Positions 11,258-30,294 of a stretch of 64,000 nt of DNA are shown here, in pieces; position 1 is the stretch's first letter, and each line of letters opens with the position of its first letter. The DNA is from a phage. A program made the position numbers and the translations under genes. The notes under the pieces are model-generated. The model was given only the letters and a program-made list of their open reading frames with translations. It did not search any database and was not told the origin of the DNA. The stretch lies in the sequence record PZ386959.1; one strand, 5' to 3'.

Positions 11258-11258
<1 letters not shown>
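11019..11258 (+). CDS. tail assembly chaperone frameshift extension (gpGT-like)
   Basis: Its reading frame is -1 relative to the upstream chaperone and is open from 10938; no convincing Shine-Dalgarno before its own ATG; its stop overlaps the tape measure ATG. Confidence 0.45.
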
Positions 11259-19277
<8,019 letters not shown>

Positions 19278-25816: not shown

Positions 25817-26176
25817 TTATGGGAACAGACACTTAATGTCATCGTTTTTAAAAACAAAACTTGTGTAGTTGTGACCATCAACATCCAGCCAGACAGCCTG
25901 AACATCCACACCATCAAGATTGTGGTAAAGCTCTTTGATGAAGTGGTCTTTCACAATCTGACTGCTGGTTGTTTCTAGCTTAATGTTCGAGATTGCTGAA
26001 CCTACAGCCATATAGCCCATGACCCGTTTCTTCTCAGTATGCTTAATCTTACCATCTTTGTAAGCCATAATGAGATTGGAAAGAATTTTTACACCATAAT
26101 ACTTTTCAAGGTGAGTAGGTACACCATAAAAGCCTAATGCGAAGTTTTCAGAGTGGATAATGTTTTCACGTTTCAT
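25817..26176 (-). CDS. hypothetical protein
   Basis: 119-aa ORF; no motif recognised. Confidence 0.35.
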   Translation of the reverse strand: MKRENIIHSENFALGFYGVPTHLEKYYGVKILSNLIMAYKDGKIKHTEKKRVMGYMAVGSAISNIKLETTSSQIVKDHFIKELYHNLDGVDVQAVWLDVDGHNYTSFVFKNDDIKCLFP

Positions 26177-26177
26177 A

Positions 26178-26507
26178 TTAATCTGCCAACCTTAAATTGA
26201 AATTAACACCAAATTTTTCACATACTCCCAACATATACTCAAGGGAGACATTACCAGTGAGATGGATTATGTTGGATACACGAGCCTGAGAGATACCACA
26301 AATTTTAGCAACTTGCTCTTGAGAAAGACCTCTGGATTTAATCTCTCTCTTAAAACGATGTGCAACGAAGTCTCTCATTTCGTCTACATCCATTGGACAA
26401 ATATAACTCTCCATTTCAGCCTCTCTATCAGCCTCCCAATCATCTTGTGGGGCATAAGGGTCAAAAACCTCATTCATCTTTCTTCTTCCGTTTGCGTGAA
26501 GTGTCAA
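26178..26507 (-). CDS. helix-turn-helix DNA-binding protein (XRE-like HTH)
   Basis: C-terminal segment RGLSQEQVAKICGISQARVSNIIHLTGNVSLEYMLGVCEKFGV has the pattern of an XRE-family HTH. Confidence 0.5.
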   Translation of the reverse strand: MTLHANGRRKMNEVFDPYAPQDDWEADREAEMESYICPMDVDEMRDFVAHRFKREIKSRGLSQEQVAKICGISQARVSNIIHLTGNVSLEYMLGVCEKFGVNFNLRLAD

Positions 26508-26682
26508 TCAATGAATCTATGTTTGTAGCCCTAACCTTTTCACGTTCATCATTAAGATAATCATCAAGAGCCTTTTCAATCTGTGAATCATCTTGACAGA
26601 TGACTGTAAAGACTGTAAAGCCGTCTGTATCGTCAATTATCTTACCATAACCGCTTCTGGGATGTAACTTTTTAAGAGCCAT
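26470..26682 (-). CDS. hypothetical small protein
   Basis: 70-aa ORF whose 3' end overlaps the HTH gene start by about 38 nt; real status uncertain. Confidence 0.25.
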   Translation of the reverse strand: MALKKLHPRSGYGKIIDDTDGFTVFTVICQDDSQIEKALDDYLNDEREKVRATNIDSLIDTSRKRKKKDE

Positions 26683-26683
26683 A

Positions 26684-27067
26684 TCAAATACCTGTGCAGC
26701 TTCTGTTTTCTAAGAAATACTCCACACCATACATAGCTTTTTGCATCAAATCTTCTTTAAACTGGATACGATGATTGAGCATAGCCTGTACATCAATATC
26801 ATCAGGGTGCTTCTCTTTAATATTTGCAGATTGCAGGAAATACTCTGCAAGAACACGATACTGATAGTCAGTTACCTTATCAGTCATCTCTGTTAAAGAC
26901 TCTTCAGAGATTGGTTTAAGTAGTTCACCTTTAGATAGGGCAACACCTTTAACAATCTGGCAAGTGTCTTCTGGAACACCTGATAAGTCCACATTTGGAA
27001 GTTCTGTTGCATTGACTGGTAAATTCATTGCCATAACCATTGCAGCAGCTAATAAAATCTTTTTCAT
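26684..27067 (-). CDS. secreted (signal-peptide) protein of unknown function
   Basis: N-terminus MKKILLAAAMVMAMNLPVNA looks like a Sec signal peptide with an AxA-type cleavage site; first gene downstream of intergenic module R1. Confidence 0.45.
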   Translation of the reverse strand: MKKILLAAAMVMAMNLPVNATELPNVDLSGVPEDTCQIVKGVALSKGELLKPISEESLTEMTDKVTDYQYRVLAEYFLQSANIKEKHPDDIDVQAMLNHRIQFKEDLMQKAMYGVEYFLENRSCTGI

Positions 27068-27111
27068 AATGACCTCAAAGTTATATTAAATTTTGTATTA
27101 CATTGAGTATA

Positions 27112-27140
27112 AAAATAAGCTATAACACCTGACTTGTCAA
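27112..27140 (-). promoter_or_regulatory. candidate minus-strand promoter for the secreted-protein gene
   Basis: On the minus strand: -35 TTGACA (plus 27140-27135), 17-nt spacer, -10 TATTTT (plus 27117-27112), about 45 nt upstream of the ATG at 27067; lies in the leader segment shared by modules R1 and R2. Confidence 0.3.
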
Positions 27141-27242
27141 CAGATTTTATAGCTTATTTGGCAGATTTTTTATAAGGCTACTGCCATCCTTCCATACCAC
27201 ACCTCACCCAACCATACCATGCCTTACCAGACCGCACCTTGC

Positions 27243-27316
27243 CTTATTAAAAGACCCTGTTTAAAGACCTTTTAAAAAGGTGAGTCTCATTTTAATGTAG
27301 CTGAGACTAACTACCC
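27243..27316. repeat. conserved 74-nt box, copy 1 (contains hairpin AGTCTCA / TGAGACT)
   Basis: CTTATTAAAAGACCCTGTTTAAAGACCTTTTAAAAAGGTGAGTCTCATTTTAATGTAGCTGAGACTAACTACCC; 73/74 identical to copy 2; a degenerate third copy lies at 27519-27553. Confidence 0.85.
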
Positions 27317-27389
27317 ATACATTACCTCGCCTAACCGCACCCGAATCAACCGGACTAGACCAAGCCCCACTGCACATCACCGAACCAAG

Positions 27390-27428
27390 CATCACTTAAA
27401 AATCCTCTTAGAAGACTCTTAAGTGATG
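27390..27428. repeat. long hairpin, copy 1 (10-bp stem, 19-nt loop)
   Basis: CATCACTTAA-aaatcctcttagaagactc-TTAAGTGATG; the two arms are perfect reverse complements. Confidence 0.8.
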
Positions 27429-27541
27429 TAATCGAATTTTTATGTAGCTCCGATTAACTACCCGCACTTTACCAAACCTCACCCTACCCTACCAGACCTT
27501 ACCTAACCGCGCCGTACCTCATTAAAAGACCCTCTTAAAGA

Positions 27542-27569
27542 CCTTTTAAAAAGGAGCCTCCGAAGAGGC
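27542..27569 (-). terminator. minus-strand terminator after the two-gene cassette
   Basis: Plus-strand GGAGCCTCCGAAGAGGCT hairpin (stem AGCCTC/GAGGCT, loop CGAA) preceded by CCTTTTAAAAAGG, i.e. hairpin plus U-tract on the minus transcript, 13 nt after the stop of 27582-28022. Confidence 0.5.
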
Positions 27570-27581
27570 TACCTAGTCAAC

Positions 27582-28022
27582 TTAGAAAGGTTTTCTACGT
27601 TGCTTGTTAATGTTAGCTTTCATAGCAGCTAAATGGTTTTGCTGTTCAATTAGTCGTGAACGTTCTTGATGACTAAGTGCCATAGTGTTCACATTCTCAA
27701 TCGCTTGAGTGGCTTGCTTTAAAGCACGACCAATCTTACCAGACATTTTACGTTTTGCAATAGTTGCTTGATGCTTAGGTTCAACCACACGATAACCAAC
27801 ACCCATTGAAGCAACCAGATAAATCTTCTCTTCTTTAAGAAGCTTCTCAATAAACTTCTCAAGTCGGTTTAGACGTGTAAGCGCATAAGCCTTCATTTCA
27901 TCTTCGTACTTAACAATGTCACCTTGATAAGTTGGTTTCACAATACCTAAGAAGGTATCCATCTCAGAATGTGATACAGTGTCACCGTAACTAAACTTTG
28001 CTGCTAATGCTTTTGTATTCAT
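27582..28022 (-). CDS. hypothetical protein (cassette gene 2)
   Basis: 146-aa ORF with a basic, helical C-terminal half; its stop is followed on the minus strand by a hairpin/U-tract terminator. Confidence 0.4.
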   Translation of the reverse strand: MNTKALAAKFSYGDTVSHSEMDTFLGIVKPTYQGDIVKYEDEMKAYALTRLNRLEKFIEKLLKEEKIYLVASMGVGYRVVEPKHQATIAKRKMSGKIGRALKQATQAIENVNTMALSHQERSRLIEQQNHLAAMKANINKQRRKPF

Positions 28023-28024
28023 AA

Positions 28025-28630
<606 letters not shown>

Positions 28631-28710
28631 TTAGTTGATTGTTAAGTTGTTTGTAAAGAACCCTCAACAGAAGACTCTTTAGAAACTTGGTAGATTTTTA
28701 ACGTGGCTAC

Positions 28711-28900
28711 TACCATCCACCCATACCAGACCAGACCAAGCCAAGCCCAACACTACCGAACCGGACACGACCAGACCTTATTAAAAGACCCTGTTTAAAG
28801 ACCTTTTAAAAAGGTAAGTCTCATTTTAATGTAGCTGAGACTAACTACCCACACCAAACCATAGCATACATCGCATTACCGGACAGAACCATACTTTACC
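28711..28900. repeat. intergenic module R2: two arrays of 5-nt-phased NNACC pentamers (D 28711-28777, E 28841-28900)
   Basis: CC dinucleotides recur at 5-nt (occasionally 10-nt) spacing, for example 28722, 28727, 28732, 28737, 28742, 28747 and 28850, 28855, 28860, 28880, 28890, 28900. Confidence 0.8.
28777..28850. repeat. conserved 74-nt box, copy 2
   Basis: Identical to copy 1 except one G to A change (GGTGAGTC versus GGTAAGTC). Confidence 0.85.
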
Positions 28901-28903
28901 AAA

Positions 28904-28942
28904 CATCACTTAAAAACCCTCTTAAAAGACTCTTAAGTGATG
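28904..28942. repeat. long hairpin, copy 2 (10-bp stem, 19-nt loop)
   Basis: CATCACTTAA-aaaccctcttaaaagactc-TTAAGTGATG; stem identical to copy 1, loop differs at 2 positions. Confidence 0.8.
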
Positions 28943-29157
28943 CTGGTGAGTACCTGTTGGTTTATGCTGCTCAGTATACTCACCAAATTTTCTATGTCAA
29001 CAACTTTTTATAAAAAAGTTCTGATAGCTATATGTGTCACGAAACAAAAGATTGTAAACAAGACACCCATTGCAAAAGATGTGTCCAAAAGCTTACTTGC
29101 AACGTATGACAATACAAAGACAACCAGTATAAACAGAATGACTGTACTGAGCATAGT

Positions 29158-30294
29158 TTATTCATAATCCCTAATAACTAGCCCTACAGGGAACTGTAAA
29201 GACCCCTTACGAGTCATCTTCTGGAACTGAACCGTTAAAGGTTTCCCGATAAACTCTTCAGGATGTTCAGCAAGATACTGTTTCTTCTCGTGTGTAGTTT
29301 TCCATGAAACATCTACAAAGACGTTAGGAAGAGTCTCTACAACGAACTTACCATGACCACGCTTATCGGTCTTTACACCAGTCACTTTAAACTCTTCAGT
29401 GTGCATCTTCTTGTGCTTAATCAAGAAGTATGAACGGTGACAACACTCATAGAAGGAGTCTTCAGAGATTGAACGGTACATTGCACCTTCAAACTTAGCT
29501 TCAACCCACTTATCATGAGCTTCATCAAACTCTTCCCAAGAATTTACACGGATAGTCTGTACAGGAACCACTCTACAGGTATCCCCAAGCTCAACAATAG
29601 GTGAGTTATCAATAACTTCACGACGCTCAGGCCAAGATTTTGAATTGTCACAGATATCATACCAGTAGAATCTAAGAAGGTGACGGTCTGGATTGTCAGC
29701 ATTCTTAATCATAGATACAATATCTTCTAAGTCCCAACCATGAGCATAAATCTCTCCGTCAAAGTCTTCAACTTGCGGATGTAATTTAAGCAACAAAAGC
29801 AAATCTGGGATTAGTTCTGTTGGAACGTTGTAAACAGTATTCTCACGAGAATAAGCTGTGAAACTGACTGAATCAGCATCTCTTGAAATTCTACAACGGA
29901 CACCATCAAGTTTTGGTTGAGCATCAGCAGGGAACTTCAGATACTTTGCATGACTAACCTTTGCAGCATCATGAGCAAGCTGTACACCTACCTTCTCAGT
30001 ATTCTGTGCAGATTCTTTTGTGTAAGCATAACCTTTACGGTCAACTTGCTTTTTATACTTAGCAGCAACTTCAAAGAGAGCTTGCTGTTCAGCGTTACGC
30101 TCATTCTTTTTACCGATGTTTTTAGGTTCTGCTGTATACTCTTCAAACATCATCTTGCCATTTTCTTTACCGTAGGTTGTAATAACTTTGTCACCTACAG
30201 CAACACATGACCAGACGTTGAAGGAACCGTCTTTATTTTGTTTGTACAGAATTGTCATTTTTAACCTCTGAGTGATACCAAGTGTCGCAAGCAT
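29158..30294 (-). CDS. ATP-dependent DNA ligase
   Basis: Contains the adenylation motif I KLDGVRC (KxDGxR); size (378 aa) fits phage ATP-dependent ligases. Confidence 0.8.
   Translation of the reverse strand: MLATLGITQRLKMTILYKQNKDGSFNVWSCVAVGDKVITTYGKENGKMMFEEYTAEPKNIGKKNERNAEQQALFEVAAKYKKQVDRKGYAYTKESAQNTEKVGVQLAHDAAKVSHAKYLKFPADAQPKLDGVRCRISRDADSVSFTAYSRENTVYNVPTELIPDLLLLLKLHPQVEDFDGEIYAHGWDLEDIVSMIKNADNPDRHLLRFYWYDICDNSKSWPERREVIDNSPIVELGDTCRVVPVQTIRVNSWEEFDEAHDKWVEAKFEGAMYRSISEDSFYECCHRSYFLIKHKKMHTEEFKVTGVKTDKRGHGKFVVETLPNVFVDVSWKTTHEKKQYLAEHPEEFIGKPLTVQFQKMTRKGSLQFPVGLVIRDYE

What the first reader, a model, noticed from the sequence alone, without database searches (positions are those of the whole stretch)
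27181..27518. Three arrays of strictly 5-nt-phased NNACC pentamers in the intergenic region downstream of the cassette
Between 27181 and 27518 the plus strand is almost purine-G-free, and CC dinucleotides recur every 5 nt over runs of 10 to 13 units (array A: atacc acacc tcacc caacc atacc atgcc ttacc agacc gcacc ttgcc; array C: ttacc aaacc tcacc ctacc ctacc agacc ttacc taacc gcgcc gtacc). The pentamer sequences vary, but the phase is kept, which suggests selection on periodicity rather than on an exact word. On the minus strand, which is the coding strand of all neighbouring genes, these read as (GGTNN)n, that is GG doublets separated by 3-nt loops. Such a tract could form two-quartet G-quadruplexes in DNA or RNA, could be an iteron-like binding array for a phage or host protein, or could be a priming/origin zone given the adjacent ligase, polymerase and T7-type primase genes. 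I do not recognise this architecture from any described phage element, and all functional readings are inference.
Basis: seen in the sequence. Interest (0 to 1): 0.8.

Follow-up and report, generated by a model that had tools for sequence, protein, structure and literature searches.

The report
Phage VIPR guide RNAs (GGYNN repeats)
The 5-nt-phased repeats are real and are the genes for the guide RNAs of a phage-encoded, CRISPR-like DNA-targeting system (VIPR) that was described in two 2026 preprints, so the finding is genuine and remarkable biology, but it is already explained.

Summary
CC recurs every 5 nt on the + strand in three arrays (27194-27243, 27317-27391, 27464-27518), far above shuffled controls. 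Two more arrays lie in the next intergenic region (28723-28777, 28851-28905).

On the minus (gene-sense) strand they read (GGY-NN)n: G75% / G98% / Y100% / N / N over 52 related arrays, mostly 10-16 units. Each is followed by a conserved hairpin tail.

This is a type II VIPR locus (bioRxiv 10.64898/2026.04.26.720920 and .720927). One Vipr protomer binds each GGY, and the NN dinucleotides pair with DNA while skipping every third target base.

I re-tested that rule. Four of the five window guides match an E. coli chromosomal phage satellite at 86-95% of NN positions. The fifth reaches 77% (85% without its last unit). Skip rules 0, 2 and 3 give background only.

The G-quadruplex, iteron and origin readings are not supported. 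Novelty: already known.

The parts
   Evidence: Under the 1-nt-skip rule it matches satellites at 21/22 NN positions (L032 9533-9565, L035), versus 16-17 under other skip rules; 0/100 unit-order permutations reach this.
27428..27463 (-). 3' tail of vrRNA-C (tail X2): GGGTAGTTAATCGGAGCTACATAAAAATTCGATTAC. Hairpin AATCGG/TTCGATT with the conserved loop AGCTACAT(A/T)AAAA.
   Evidence: The stem covaries with tail X1 (3 pairs changed on both sides, all cells paired). A G.U variant fits RNA of the minus strand.
   Evidence: 24/28 NN match inside the satellite large serine recombinase gene (L032 14431-14472, L043), with the skip base at the codon wobble position. Controls give 18-20; 0/100 permutations reach this.
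27279..27316 (-). 3' tail of vrRNA-B (tail X1): GGGTAGTTAGTCTCAGCTACATTAAAATGAGACTCACC, followed by a T-run
   Evidence: The hairpin AGTCTCA/TGAGACT is predicted in the minimum-free-energy fold. It is compatible with an H-type pseudoknot (GTAGTT/AGCTAC), whose stem is invariant.
   Evidence: 18/20 NN match (17/18 without the last unit) in the satellite intergenic region upstream of the ~236-aa gene (L036 9516-9545, also L038, L042, L046). Controls give 15; 0/100 permutations reach this.
27160..27193 (-). 3' tail of vrRNA-A (tail Z): GGAAGGATGGCAGTAGCCTTATAAAAAATCTGCC
   Evidence: essentially invariant in 29 copies. The stem GGCAG/CTGCC covaries with GGTAG/CTACC in tail Z' and with GTCG/CGAC in the satellite copies.
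27244..27278 (-). 'Box X' spacer between the tail of vrRNA-B and the tract of vrRNA-A (…CCTTTTTAAAAGGTCTTTAAACAGGGTCTTTTAATAA). Other copies lie at about 27519-27549 and 28778-28812.
   Evidence: Found only in these two intergenic regions of the window. Its role (weak promoter or processing signal) is inferred, not shown.
27390..27428 (-). 'Hairpin Y' (CATCACTTAAGAGTCTTCTAAGAGGATTTTTAAGTGATG), the alternative 5' flank of a repeat tract. A second copy lies at 28906-28944.
   Evidence: It precedes about half of the arrays in related phages, including SUSP1 vrRNA1.
27582..28022 (-). vap1, the Vipr-accessory protein gene (146 aa)
   Evidence: 145/146 identical to the SUSP1 gene downstream of vipr. 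No Pfam match; PHROG 5926, function unknown. The single-sequence AF2 model has pLDDT 68 only.
28025..28612 (-). vipr, a Cas7-like RAMP protein (195 aa from the ATG; the ORF is open from the GTG at 28627)
28723..28777 (-). vrRNA-D repeat tract, 11 units (not in the original finding)
   Evidence: Best match 17/22 (17/20 without the last unit), at a homologous site in the recombinase gene of 5 satellites, with the skip base at wobble. 6/100 permutations reach it, so the target is not established.
28689..28722 (-). 3' tail of vrRNA-D (tail Z'): GGGTGGATGGTAGTAGCCACGTTAAAAATCTACC
   Evidence: Identical to the tail of SUSP1 vrRNA1.
28851..28905 (-). vrRNA-E repeat tract, 11 units (not in the original finding)
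   Evidence: 19/20 NN match inside the satellite ~236-aa gene (L045 7242-7271), rising to 21/22 when the first unit is included (the identical array in L008). The skip base is at wobble. Controls give 15.
28813..28850 (-). 3' tail of vrRNA-E (tail X1)
28973..29000 (-). Sigma-70-type promoter TTGACA-16-TATACT at the head of the locus, downstream of the ligase gene
   Evidence: 11/12 match. Conserved in Felix O1, wV8 and SUSP1. Its use is inferred.
27555..27570 (-). Intrinsic terminator after vap1

Best explanation
The arrays are the guide segments of five small VIPR RNAs (vrRNAs), transcribed from the minus strand on both sides of a vipr-vap1 cassette. This is a type II VIPR system of the SUSP1 clade.

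How it works:
1. Each vrRNA is a tract of 10-15 GGY-NN pentamers capped by a conserved 3' hairpin/pseudoknot tail.
2. Vipr, a minimal Cas7-like RAMP, polymerises along the RNA with one protomer per pentamer. It locks G1, G2 and Y3 in protein pockets and presents N4N5.
3. The presented dinucleotides pair with double-stranded DNA that reads xNN-xNN-..., flipping out every third target base.
4. The bound filament represses transcription.

In this phage the guides are aimed at an ~11-kb chromosomal phage satellite of E. coli. That satellite carries a tape-measure gene and a baseplate gene about 92% identical in DNA to the phage's own. Targets are its large serine recombinase gene, a ~236-aa gene, and the region upstream of that gene.

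Shown here:
- the repeat anatomy and its conservation pattern;
- the RAMP fold of Vipr and its 98% identity to the characterised protein;
- covariation in the tail hairpin;
- guide-target matches specific to the 1-nt-skip rule.

Taken from the two preprints (shown for SUSP1, 98% identical, not for this phage): expression as ~100-nt RNAs, co-purification with Vipr, filament and triplex structure, and transcriptional silencing.

Inferred: that the purpose in this phage is to suppress the satellite.
For: Anatomy:
- Five arrays share one orientation, each followed by a conserved tail.
- The GGY/NN conservation profile holds over 52 arrays, mostly 10-16 units long.

Synteny and identity with the experimentally characterised SUSP1 locus:
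- The order ligase - IGR with vrRNA - vipr - vap - IGR with vrRNAs is the same.
- Vipr is 191/195 identical and Vap1 145/146 identical.

Fold:
- RNA-contact residues H17, K33, E71, M72, R138, C173, D177, W178 and R179, named in 10.64898/2026.04.26.720927, are all present.

Tail:
- The hairpin has 3 pairs with compensatory changes, 100% of cells pair, and 0/500 shuffles reach the covariation score.

Targets:
- The satellite was located through the phage gene 13486-14286. A copy of ~92% identity occurs in 474 of 5,426 E. coli genomes.
- Window guides match at 21/22 (C), 19/20 (E), 18/20 (A) and 24/28 (B) under 1-nt skip, against 15-20 under skips of 0, 2 or 3.
- 0/100 unit-order permutations reach the observed score for C, B and A.
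- All three in-gene sites put the skipped base on the codon wobble position.
- There is no self-target in the window.
- Across 48 arrays from related phages, 39 reach >=80% NN match with 1-nt skip, versus 2, 0 and 3 with the other rules.

Published description of the system.
Against: - No expression data exist for this particular phage.
- The 5' ends of the vrRNAs and what makes them (promoter or processing) are undefined.
- Guide D reaches only 17/22, and 6/100 permutations do as well, so its target is not established.
- No guide has a perfect match among the 15 satellites sampled.
- The last repeat unit usually does not match its target (74% mismatch), so the guide boundaries are approximate.
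- The pseudoknot stem of the tail is invariant, so it is untested by covariation.
- Both source papers are preprints from one laboratory.
Confidence: 0.93

Rival explanations
1. The GG doublets with 3-nt loops form two-tetrad G-quadruplexes in DNA or RNA, and these regulate transcription or replication.
For: There is a regular (GG-N3)n pattern with 10-15 doublets per tract.
Against: - G4-aware folding (ViennaRNA gquad) gives the same structures and energies as ordinary folding for all five tracts. No quadruplex is predicted.
- Position 3 is a pyrimidine in 100% of units. Position 1 tolerates A or T in 25% of units. That fits a protein pocket but not a G4 requirement.
- The NN positions carry target-matching information, which a G4 has no reason to carry.
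- In the cryo-EM work the guanines are held individually by Vipr.
Confidence: 0.02
2. The arrays are DNA-level iterons, or a priming or origin zone for the phage replication proteins encoded nearby (ligase, polymerase, T7-type primase-helicase).
For: The arrays lie close to replication genes. Box X contains GGGTC and AGGTC, which resemble T7 primase sites (the comparison with T7 is from my own knowledge).
Against: - The arrays and the cassette are accessory. Felix O1 has ORF87 directly next to the ligase gene with one degenerate array, and only about half of related phage records carry the cassette.
- Array number varies from 1 to 5 or more between near-identical phages.
- The repeat words are hypervariable, unlike iterons.
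- The same arrays occur in non-replicating chromosomal satellites.
Confidence: 0.02
3. The arrays are binding sites on a leader RNA for a ring-shaped protein of the TRAP type. That protein switches a terminator/antiterminator to control the downstream genes. This was my own first hypothesis.
For: The arrays have 5-nt spacing of a trinucleotide over about 11 units, as in the TRAP-trp leader (own knowledge). Hairpins with T-runs follow two of the arrays.
Against: - The associated protein is a Cas7-type RAMP, not a TRAP-like ring.
- An attenuator has no need for hypervariable spacers that match a foreign element under a gapped code.
- Published structures show a helical filament that binds DNA.
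Confidence: 0.02
4. The arrays are decayed pentanucleotide microsatellites produced by replication slippage, with no function.
For: Runs of identical units occur (GGTCA x3-4, GGTAA x3) and their number varies between phages.
Against: - Neutral decay would erode all five positions equally. Here positions 2 and 3 are 98-100% constrained while positions 4 and 5 are free.
- The arrays are always followed by a conserved structured tail.
- The guides match satellites far above controls.
Confidence: 0.01

Closest known systems
Type II VIPR system of Escherichia phage SUSP1 (Vipr + Vap1 + vrRNAs); bioRxiv 10.64898/2026.04.26.720920 and 10.64898/2026.04.26.720927
   Same: - Gene order and genomic position are the same (between the DNA ligase gene and the ORF87 homologue).
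- Vipr is 98% identical and Vap1 99% identical.
- The same tail types (X, Z, Z'), box X and hairpin Y are present.
- The GGY/NN tracts have 10-15 units.
- The guides point at the same kind of E. coli satellite under the 1-nt-skip rule.
   Different: - The guide (NN) sequences are different.
- Two vrRNAs lie upstream of vipr here (E and D), against one in SUSP1, so the total is five rather than four.
- The host phage belongs to Felixounavirus rather than Suspvirus.
Class 1 CRISPR-Cas effector backbones (Cas7/Csm3/Cmr4 filaments on crRNA)
   Same: - One protomer binds per fixed RNA step.
- The thumb flips bases out of the guide-target duplex periodically.
- The guide is capped by a conserved structured handle.
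   Different: - There is no repeat-spacer array, no Cas6, Cas5 or large subunit, and no Cas1-Cas2.
- The step is 5 nt, with 3 nt sequestered and 2 nt read, instead of 6 nt with 5 read.
- The guide is non-contiguous.
- The target is read as xNN.
- The locus is encoded by a lytic phage.
Phage ICP1 CRISPR-Cas directed against the PLE satellite of Vibrio cholerae (own knowledge: Seed et al. 2013)
   Same: A lytic phage carries an RNA-guided system whose guides target a chromosomal satellite that parasitises it.
   Different: ICP1 uses a complete type I-F CRISPR-Cas with adaptation and DNA degradation. The system here is two genes plus fixed vrRNA genes. It has no known adaptation module, and in SUSP1 it represses rather than cuts.
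TRAP-trp leader RNA of Bacillus (own knowledge)
   Same: A trinucleotide is repeated at about 5-nt spacing, roughly 11 times, and each repeat is bound by one subunit of a protein oligomer.
   Different: TRAP is a closed ring of an unrelated fold. Its spacers carry no information, and its output is attenuation, not DNA targeting.

Membership tests
VIPR (type II, SUSP1 clade) | A Vipr protein: a single-RRM RAMP with a glycine-rich loop and a thumb | tested here: met
   [not shown]
VIPR (type II, SUSP1 clade) | >90% identity to SUSP1 Vipr (the paper's definition of the clade) | tested here: met
   191/195 identical. The definition is quoted.
VIPR (type II, SUSP1 clade) | Residues that hold G1, G2 and Y3 and the skipped base (H17, D177, R138, W178, R179, E71, M72, C173, K33) | tested here: met
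   All are present at the same positions (compared). Position 175 is V both here and in GenBank SUSP1, whereas the preprint writes T175.
VIPR (type II, SUSP1 clade) | An adjacent vap gene, giving a two-gene operon without cas genes or a CRISPR array | tested here: met
   The 146-aa gene is 145/146 identical to the SUSP1 gene downstream of vipr. The flanking intergenic regions hold only the pentamer arrays and their tails.
VIPR (type II, SUSP1 clade) | vrRNA tract of YNNGG/GGYNN tandem repeats (at least 4, typically 9-16), with GGY conserved and NN hypervariable | tested here: met
   There are five tracts of 10-15 units. The position profile is G75/G98/Y100/N/N over 52 arrays.
VIPR (type II, SUSP1 clade) | An invariable structured 3' tail (hairpin and pseudoknot) after the last repeat | tested here: inconclusive
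   The tails are conserved and the hairpin is supported by 3 compensatory pairs. The second (pseudoknot) stem never varies, so covariation cannot test it.
VIPR (type II, SUSP1 clade) | Guides recognise DNA through NN pairing with a one-nucleotide skip | tested here: met
   Window guides reach 86-95% (C, E, A, B) on satellites only with the 1-nt skip. 39/48 related guides reach >=80%, versus 2, 0 and 3 for skips of 0, 2 and 3. Permutation control.
VIPR (type II, SUSP1 clade) | No self-targeting | tested here: met
   The best matches inside the 64-kb window are 15-18, at background level.
VIPR (type II, SUSP1 clade) | vrRNAs are expressed as ~100-nt RNAs and co-purify with Vipr; the complex represses transcription | not testable with these tools
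   Shown for SUSP1 only.
CRISPR-Cas class 1 | A repeat-spacer array with contiguous spacers, and a multi-subunit effector (Cas5, Cas7, large subunit), usually with Cas6 and Cas1-Cas2 | tested here: not met
   Only one RAMP gene is present. There are no direct repeats separated by spacers, only 5-nt units. So it works like a Cas7 filament but is not a CRISPR-Cas locus.
G-quadruplex-forming element | A predicted or stable G4 fold using four G-runs | tested here: not met
   G4-aware minimum-free-energy folding predicts none in any tract.

The most novel reading that the evidence does not exclude
Guide genes circulate independently of the protein.

Evidence that guide genes occur without vipr:
- vrRNA modules with intact GGY/NN tracts and satellite-matching guides (83-95% NN match) sit in Felixounaviruses whose ligase-ORF87 locus lacks the vipr-vap cassette. 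One of them, UAB_Phi87, was checked genome-wide and has no vipr or vap anywhere.
- Such modules also sit in the satellites themselves, which likewise have no vipr.

The proposed reading: these could be functional 'guide-only' elements that borrow Vipr from a co-infecting or helper phage. The shared tails, box X and hairpin Y could serve as recombination handles through which guides are exchanged, taking the place of a Cas1-Cas2 adaptation step.

The preprints mention vrRNAs in satellites but not vipr-less phages or a route of guide acquisition.
Probability: 0.2. Interest if true: 0.6.

Novelty: already known. Interest (0 to 1): 0.3.

Why it matters
The element belongs to a newly described class of RNA-guided DNA recognition: a non-contiguous, 2-of-5 nucleotide guide code read by a minimal Cas7-like protein. 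Its authors propose that the class predates CRISPR.

For this window the value is confirmatory:
- An unaided reader picked the vrRNA genes out of raw sequence.
- The published 1-nt-skip rule and the satellite targeting reproduce on independent phages and on independently retrieved satellites.

It also supplies a concrete guide-to-target map for a Felixounavirus, covering the recombinase gene, a ~236-aa gene and that gene's upstream region. That map could be used to test whether VIPR protects these widely used therapeutic and typing phages from satellite parasitism.

Tried and rejected
Searches that found nothing:
- Rfam scan of 26500-29500 at E<=10: only chance snoRNA-like hits.
- Pfam on Vipr, Vap and neighbouring genes: no family. 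PHROGs gave only 'unknown function' families.
- The Felix O1 genome paper mentions neither the arrays nor an origin here.
- BLAST of the whole intergenic region against 5,426 E. coli genomes: no match, so the satellites' own vrRNA modules are too diverged or too short for that search.
- Exact scan of IMG/VR for the full 22-base gapped pattern of guide C: no hit, because the scan needs a perfect match.
- The preprint's supplementary target tables are not held. I therefore found the satellite through the phage baseplate-like gene instead.

Analyses that were uninformative:
- Single-sequence AF2 of Vap1 gave pLDDT 68. I did not run a fold search on it, because the result would be unreliable. Vap1 has only 3 database relatives.
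- There is no correlation between GGY variants (A/T at position 1, C/T at position 3) and the skipped target base (p=0.35 and p=0.24).

Ideas I considered before finding the preprints and then dropped:
- a TRAP-like attenuator;
- an R-loop or ColE1-type origin;
- T7-type primase sites;
- Rho loading or anti-Rho tracts;
- a BREX (GGTAAG) decoy;
- boxA-like CUCUUA motifs in hairpin Y;
- consensus pause sites every 5 nt.

None of these explains both the strict pyrimidine at position 3 and the information content of the NN positions.

Full report
**1. The observation**

The window is a Felix O1-like myovirus (Felixounavirus). 255 phage records match 26000-29000, the best at about 93-95% identity.

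Reading 26800-27900 and counting in-phase CC dinucleotides in 50-nt windows confirms three + strand arrays with a strict 5-nt phase:
- Array A scores 10/10.
- Array B scores 7/10.
- Array C scores 10/10.
- Shuffles of the whole window never exceed 6/10.

The same scan finds a fourth array at 28711-28785. Inspection of 28600-29200 adds a fifth, looser array at 28851-28905. No array has the opposite orientation.

The + strand is G-poor rather than G-free.

Between the arrays lie conserved non-periodic modules that occur nowhere else in the 64 kb:
- a hairpin with the loop TTTTAATGTAGCT followed by AACTACCC, in three copies;
- an AAAAGACCCTnTTTAAAGACCTTTTAAAAAGG box;
- a 10-bp-stem hairpin, CATCACTTAA…TTAAGTGATG.

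**2. Context**

All neighbouring genes are on the minus strand. The arrays occupy the two intergenic regions that flank a two-gene cassette: 28025-28612 (195 aa) and 27582-28022 (146 aa).

Felix O1 itself lacks the cassette. Its ORF87 is followed after 282 bp by the ligase gene, and that spacer holds one degenerate array plus the CATCACTTAA hairpin.

Across 24 IMG/VR contigs and several GenBank phages the locus exists in three sizes: about 155, about 300 and about 1,550-1,860 bp between fixed anchors. The flanks are nearly identical, while the arrays differ almost completely in sequence yet keep their phase.

Some GenBank records mark parts of the region as 'repeat_region' or 'DR_4' without comment.

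**3. Anatomy on the minus strand**

Read in gene sense, each array is (GGY-NN)n. Over 52 unique arrays from 30 related loci the profile is:
- position 1: G 75%, otherwise A or T;
- position 2: G 98%;
- position 3: T 89% and C 11%, never a purine;
- positions 4-5: near random.

Most arrays have 10-16 units.

Each tract is followed by one of two conserved tails, GGGTAGTTA…AGCTACATTAAAA… or GGAAGGATGGCAGTAGCC….

The first tail exists in two forms whose hairpin stems differ by compensatory changes (AGTCTCA/TGAGACT versus AATCGGA/TYCGATT). Three pairs are changed on both sides, 100% of cells pair, and 0/500 shuffles reach the covariation score. A G.U variant fits an RNA of the minus strand.

A second stem (GTAGTT/AGCTAC) would make an H-type pseudoknot, but it never varies, so it is untested.

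The repeat tracts themselves are no more structured than shuffles (z between -0.9 and +0.6). G4-aware folding predicts no quadruplex.

**4. Identification**

My own first ideas failed to explain the purine exclusion at position 3. These included a TRAP-like attenuator, an R-loop origin, primase sites, Rho and BREX decoys.

A full-text search for 'pentanucleotide repeats' plus bacteriophage returned a June 2026 preprint, 10.64898/2026.04.26.720920. It describes VIPR systems:
- a phage-encoded ancestral RAMP protein (Vipr);
- an accessory protein (Vap);
- vrRNAs made of 9-16 YNNGG repeats capped by an invariable 3' tail.

The representative locus is Escherichia phage SUSP1, another member of the Ounavirinae.

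A companion preprint, 10.64898/2026.04.26.720927, reports cryo-EM structures:
- One Vipr protomer binds per repeat, forming a helical filament.
- G1, G2 and Y3 are locked in protein pockets.
- N4N5 pair with the target while every third target base is flipped out.

**5. Membership tests run here**

Proteins:
- The window's 195-aa protein is 191/195 identical to the SUSP1 protein. The 146-aa protein is 145/146 identical to its neighbour. This is inside the paper's clade definition of >90% identity.
- An AF2 model built on 53 homologues has pLDDT 95.6.
- The RNA-contact residues named in the structural preprint are all present.

Locus modules:
- The SUSP1 intergenic regions contain the same modules as the window: hairpin Y, box X and tails X, Z and Z'.
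- SUSP1 has one vrRNA upstream and three downstream of the genes. The window has two upstream and three downstream.

**6. Independent test of the targeting rule**

The preprint states that the SUSP1-clade guides converge on a satellite whose baseplate protein is 72% identical to the phage's.

I located the corresponding phage gene, 13486-14286, just after the tape-measure gene. A copy of about 92% DNA identity occurs in 474 of 5,426 complete E. coli genomes.

That copy lies in an ~11-kb island. The island carries a tape-measure gene, the baseplate gene and a large serine recombinase. It is inserted next to tonB or inside a DUF72 gene.

I scanned 15 such loci with the five window guides under skip rules of 0-3 nt. 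Only the 1-nt skip gave strong matches:

| Guide | NN match | Location of best match |
|---|---|---|
| C | 21/22 | upstream of a ~236-aa gene |
| E | 19/20 (21/22 with its first unit) | inside that gene |
| A | 18/20 | same upstream region as C |
| B | 24/28 | inside the recombinase gene |
| D | 17/22 | inside the recombinase gene |

Controls:
- The other skip rules give at most 15-20.
- Unit-order permutations reach the observed value 0/100 times for C, B and A, 3/100 for E (scored at 17/20 on the first nine satellites) and 6/100 for D.
- The three in-gene sites all place the skipped base on the codon wobble position.
- The window contains no self-target.

Generalising to 48 arrays from related phages, 39 reach >=80% NN match with the 1-nt skip, against 2, 0 and 3 for the other rules.

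Mismatches concentrate in the last unit before the tail (74%) and the penultimate unit (29%). Central units mismatch in 0-3% of cases. The conserved final GGTAT is therefore probably part of the cap rather than of the guide. Without it, guide D reaches 17/20.

**7. Verdict**

The arrays are vrRNA genes of a type II VIPR system.

The proposed functions (G-quadruplex, DNA iteron, origin or priming zone) are not supported.

Because the system, including this clade, was described and mechanistically dissected in 2026 preprints, the novelty class is 'already known' and the interest score is low. The biology itself is striking.

**8. What remains open**

- How the 5' ends of the vrRNAs are made.
- What box X and hairpin Y do.
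- How new guides arise without an adaptation module.
- Why vipr-less phages and satellites keep apparently intact, satellite-matching vrRNA genes.

Noticed in passing
L040+L041 (UAB_Phi87, NC_027360.1, whole genome); L007, L008, L013, L021, L026; L003 1300-1480 (Felix O1): Felixounaviruses without the vipr-vap cassette at this locus still carry one or two vrRNA-like modules between ORF87 and the ligase gene. For UAB_Phi87, tblastn over the whole genome finds no vipr or vap (E<=1). [quoted passage not shown]
   Followed up: partly
L031 6866-6925, L036 5646-5720, L037 5694-5763, L038 5909-5983 (all on the minus strand of the locus): 4 of the first 9 E. coli satellites carry their own GGYNN array (10-13 units) with a Z'-type tail. 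The tail stem covaries (GGTAG/CTAC versus GTCG/CGAC). None of the 9 satellites encodes vipr or vap, so these guides would need Vipr supplied by a phage.
   Followed up: partly
all arrays; window 27194-27198, 27317-27321, 28723-28727: The last repeat unit before the tail is nearly always GGTAT. It mismatches its target in 74% of confident guide-target pairs, the penultimate unit in 29% and central units in 0-3%. The effective guide appears to end one unit before the tail.
   Followed up: yes
window 27244-27278, 27519-27549, 28778-28812 (box X); 27390-27428, 28906-28944 (hairpin Y): Every repeat tract is preceded by one of two alternative conserved modules. One is an AT-rich box with a tandem GGTCTTT(T)AA motif (a weak TTAAAA-18-TTTAAT promoter-like site). 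The other is the 3' arm of a 10-bp hairpin. Whether these are promoters or RNA-processing signals is unknown, and I did not find it addressed in the parts of the preprints I read.
   Followed up: no
window 27114-27158: A 12-bp inverted repeat (AATAAGCTATAA / TTATAGCTTATT) directly follows the tail of vrRNA-A. It encloses the -35 hexamer of the sigma-70-like promoter of ORF 26684-27067 in its loop and is followed by a T-run. This is a possible terminator-promoter overlap that couples the end of the vrRNA array to expression of the next gene.
   Followed up: no
L032 9505-9590: The satellite site matched by guide C lies inside the loop of a long inverted repeat (TTCAGTTTTTAAAAAGCACAC … GTGTGCTTTTTAAAAACTGAA), 48 nt upstream of the ~236-aa gene. 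Guide A matches about 60 nt further upstream in other satellites. This looks like a regulatory region, but it is uncharacterised.
   Followed up: no
window 13486-14286 and 11258-13486; L031-L039, L042-L047: 474 of 5,426 complete E. coli genomes carry an ~11-kb island at tonB/yciI or inside a DUF72 gene near yecN/yecD. One sampled island (L044) lies near wrbA instead. Its baseplate-like gene is about 92% identical in DNA to the phage gene over roughly 70% of its length, so the exchange between phage and satellite is recent.
   Followed up: partly
window 28025-28612, residue 175 of Vipr: The structural preprint names T175 as part of the Y3 pocket. Both the GenBank SUSP1 protein and the window protein have V at position 175 (…LCGVGDWRP…). 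This is probably a numbering or typing slip in the preprint.
   Followed up: no
L001 2825-2876, L002 2831-2877, L004 2710-2767 and 4103-4160: Public records of phages dune, bumzen and wV8 annotate pieces of these modules only as 'repeat_region' or 'DR_4'. No record inspected here annotates vipr, vap or the vrRNAs by function.
   Followed up: no
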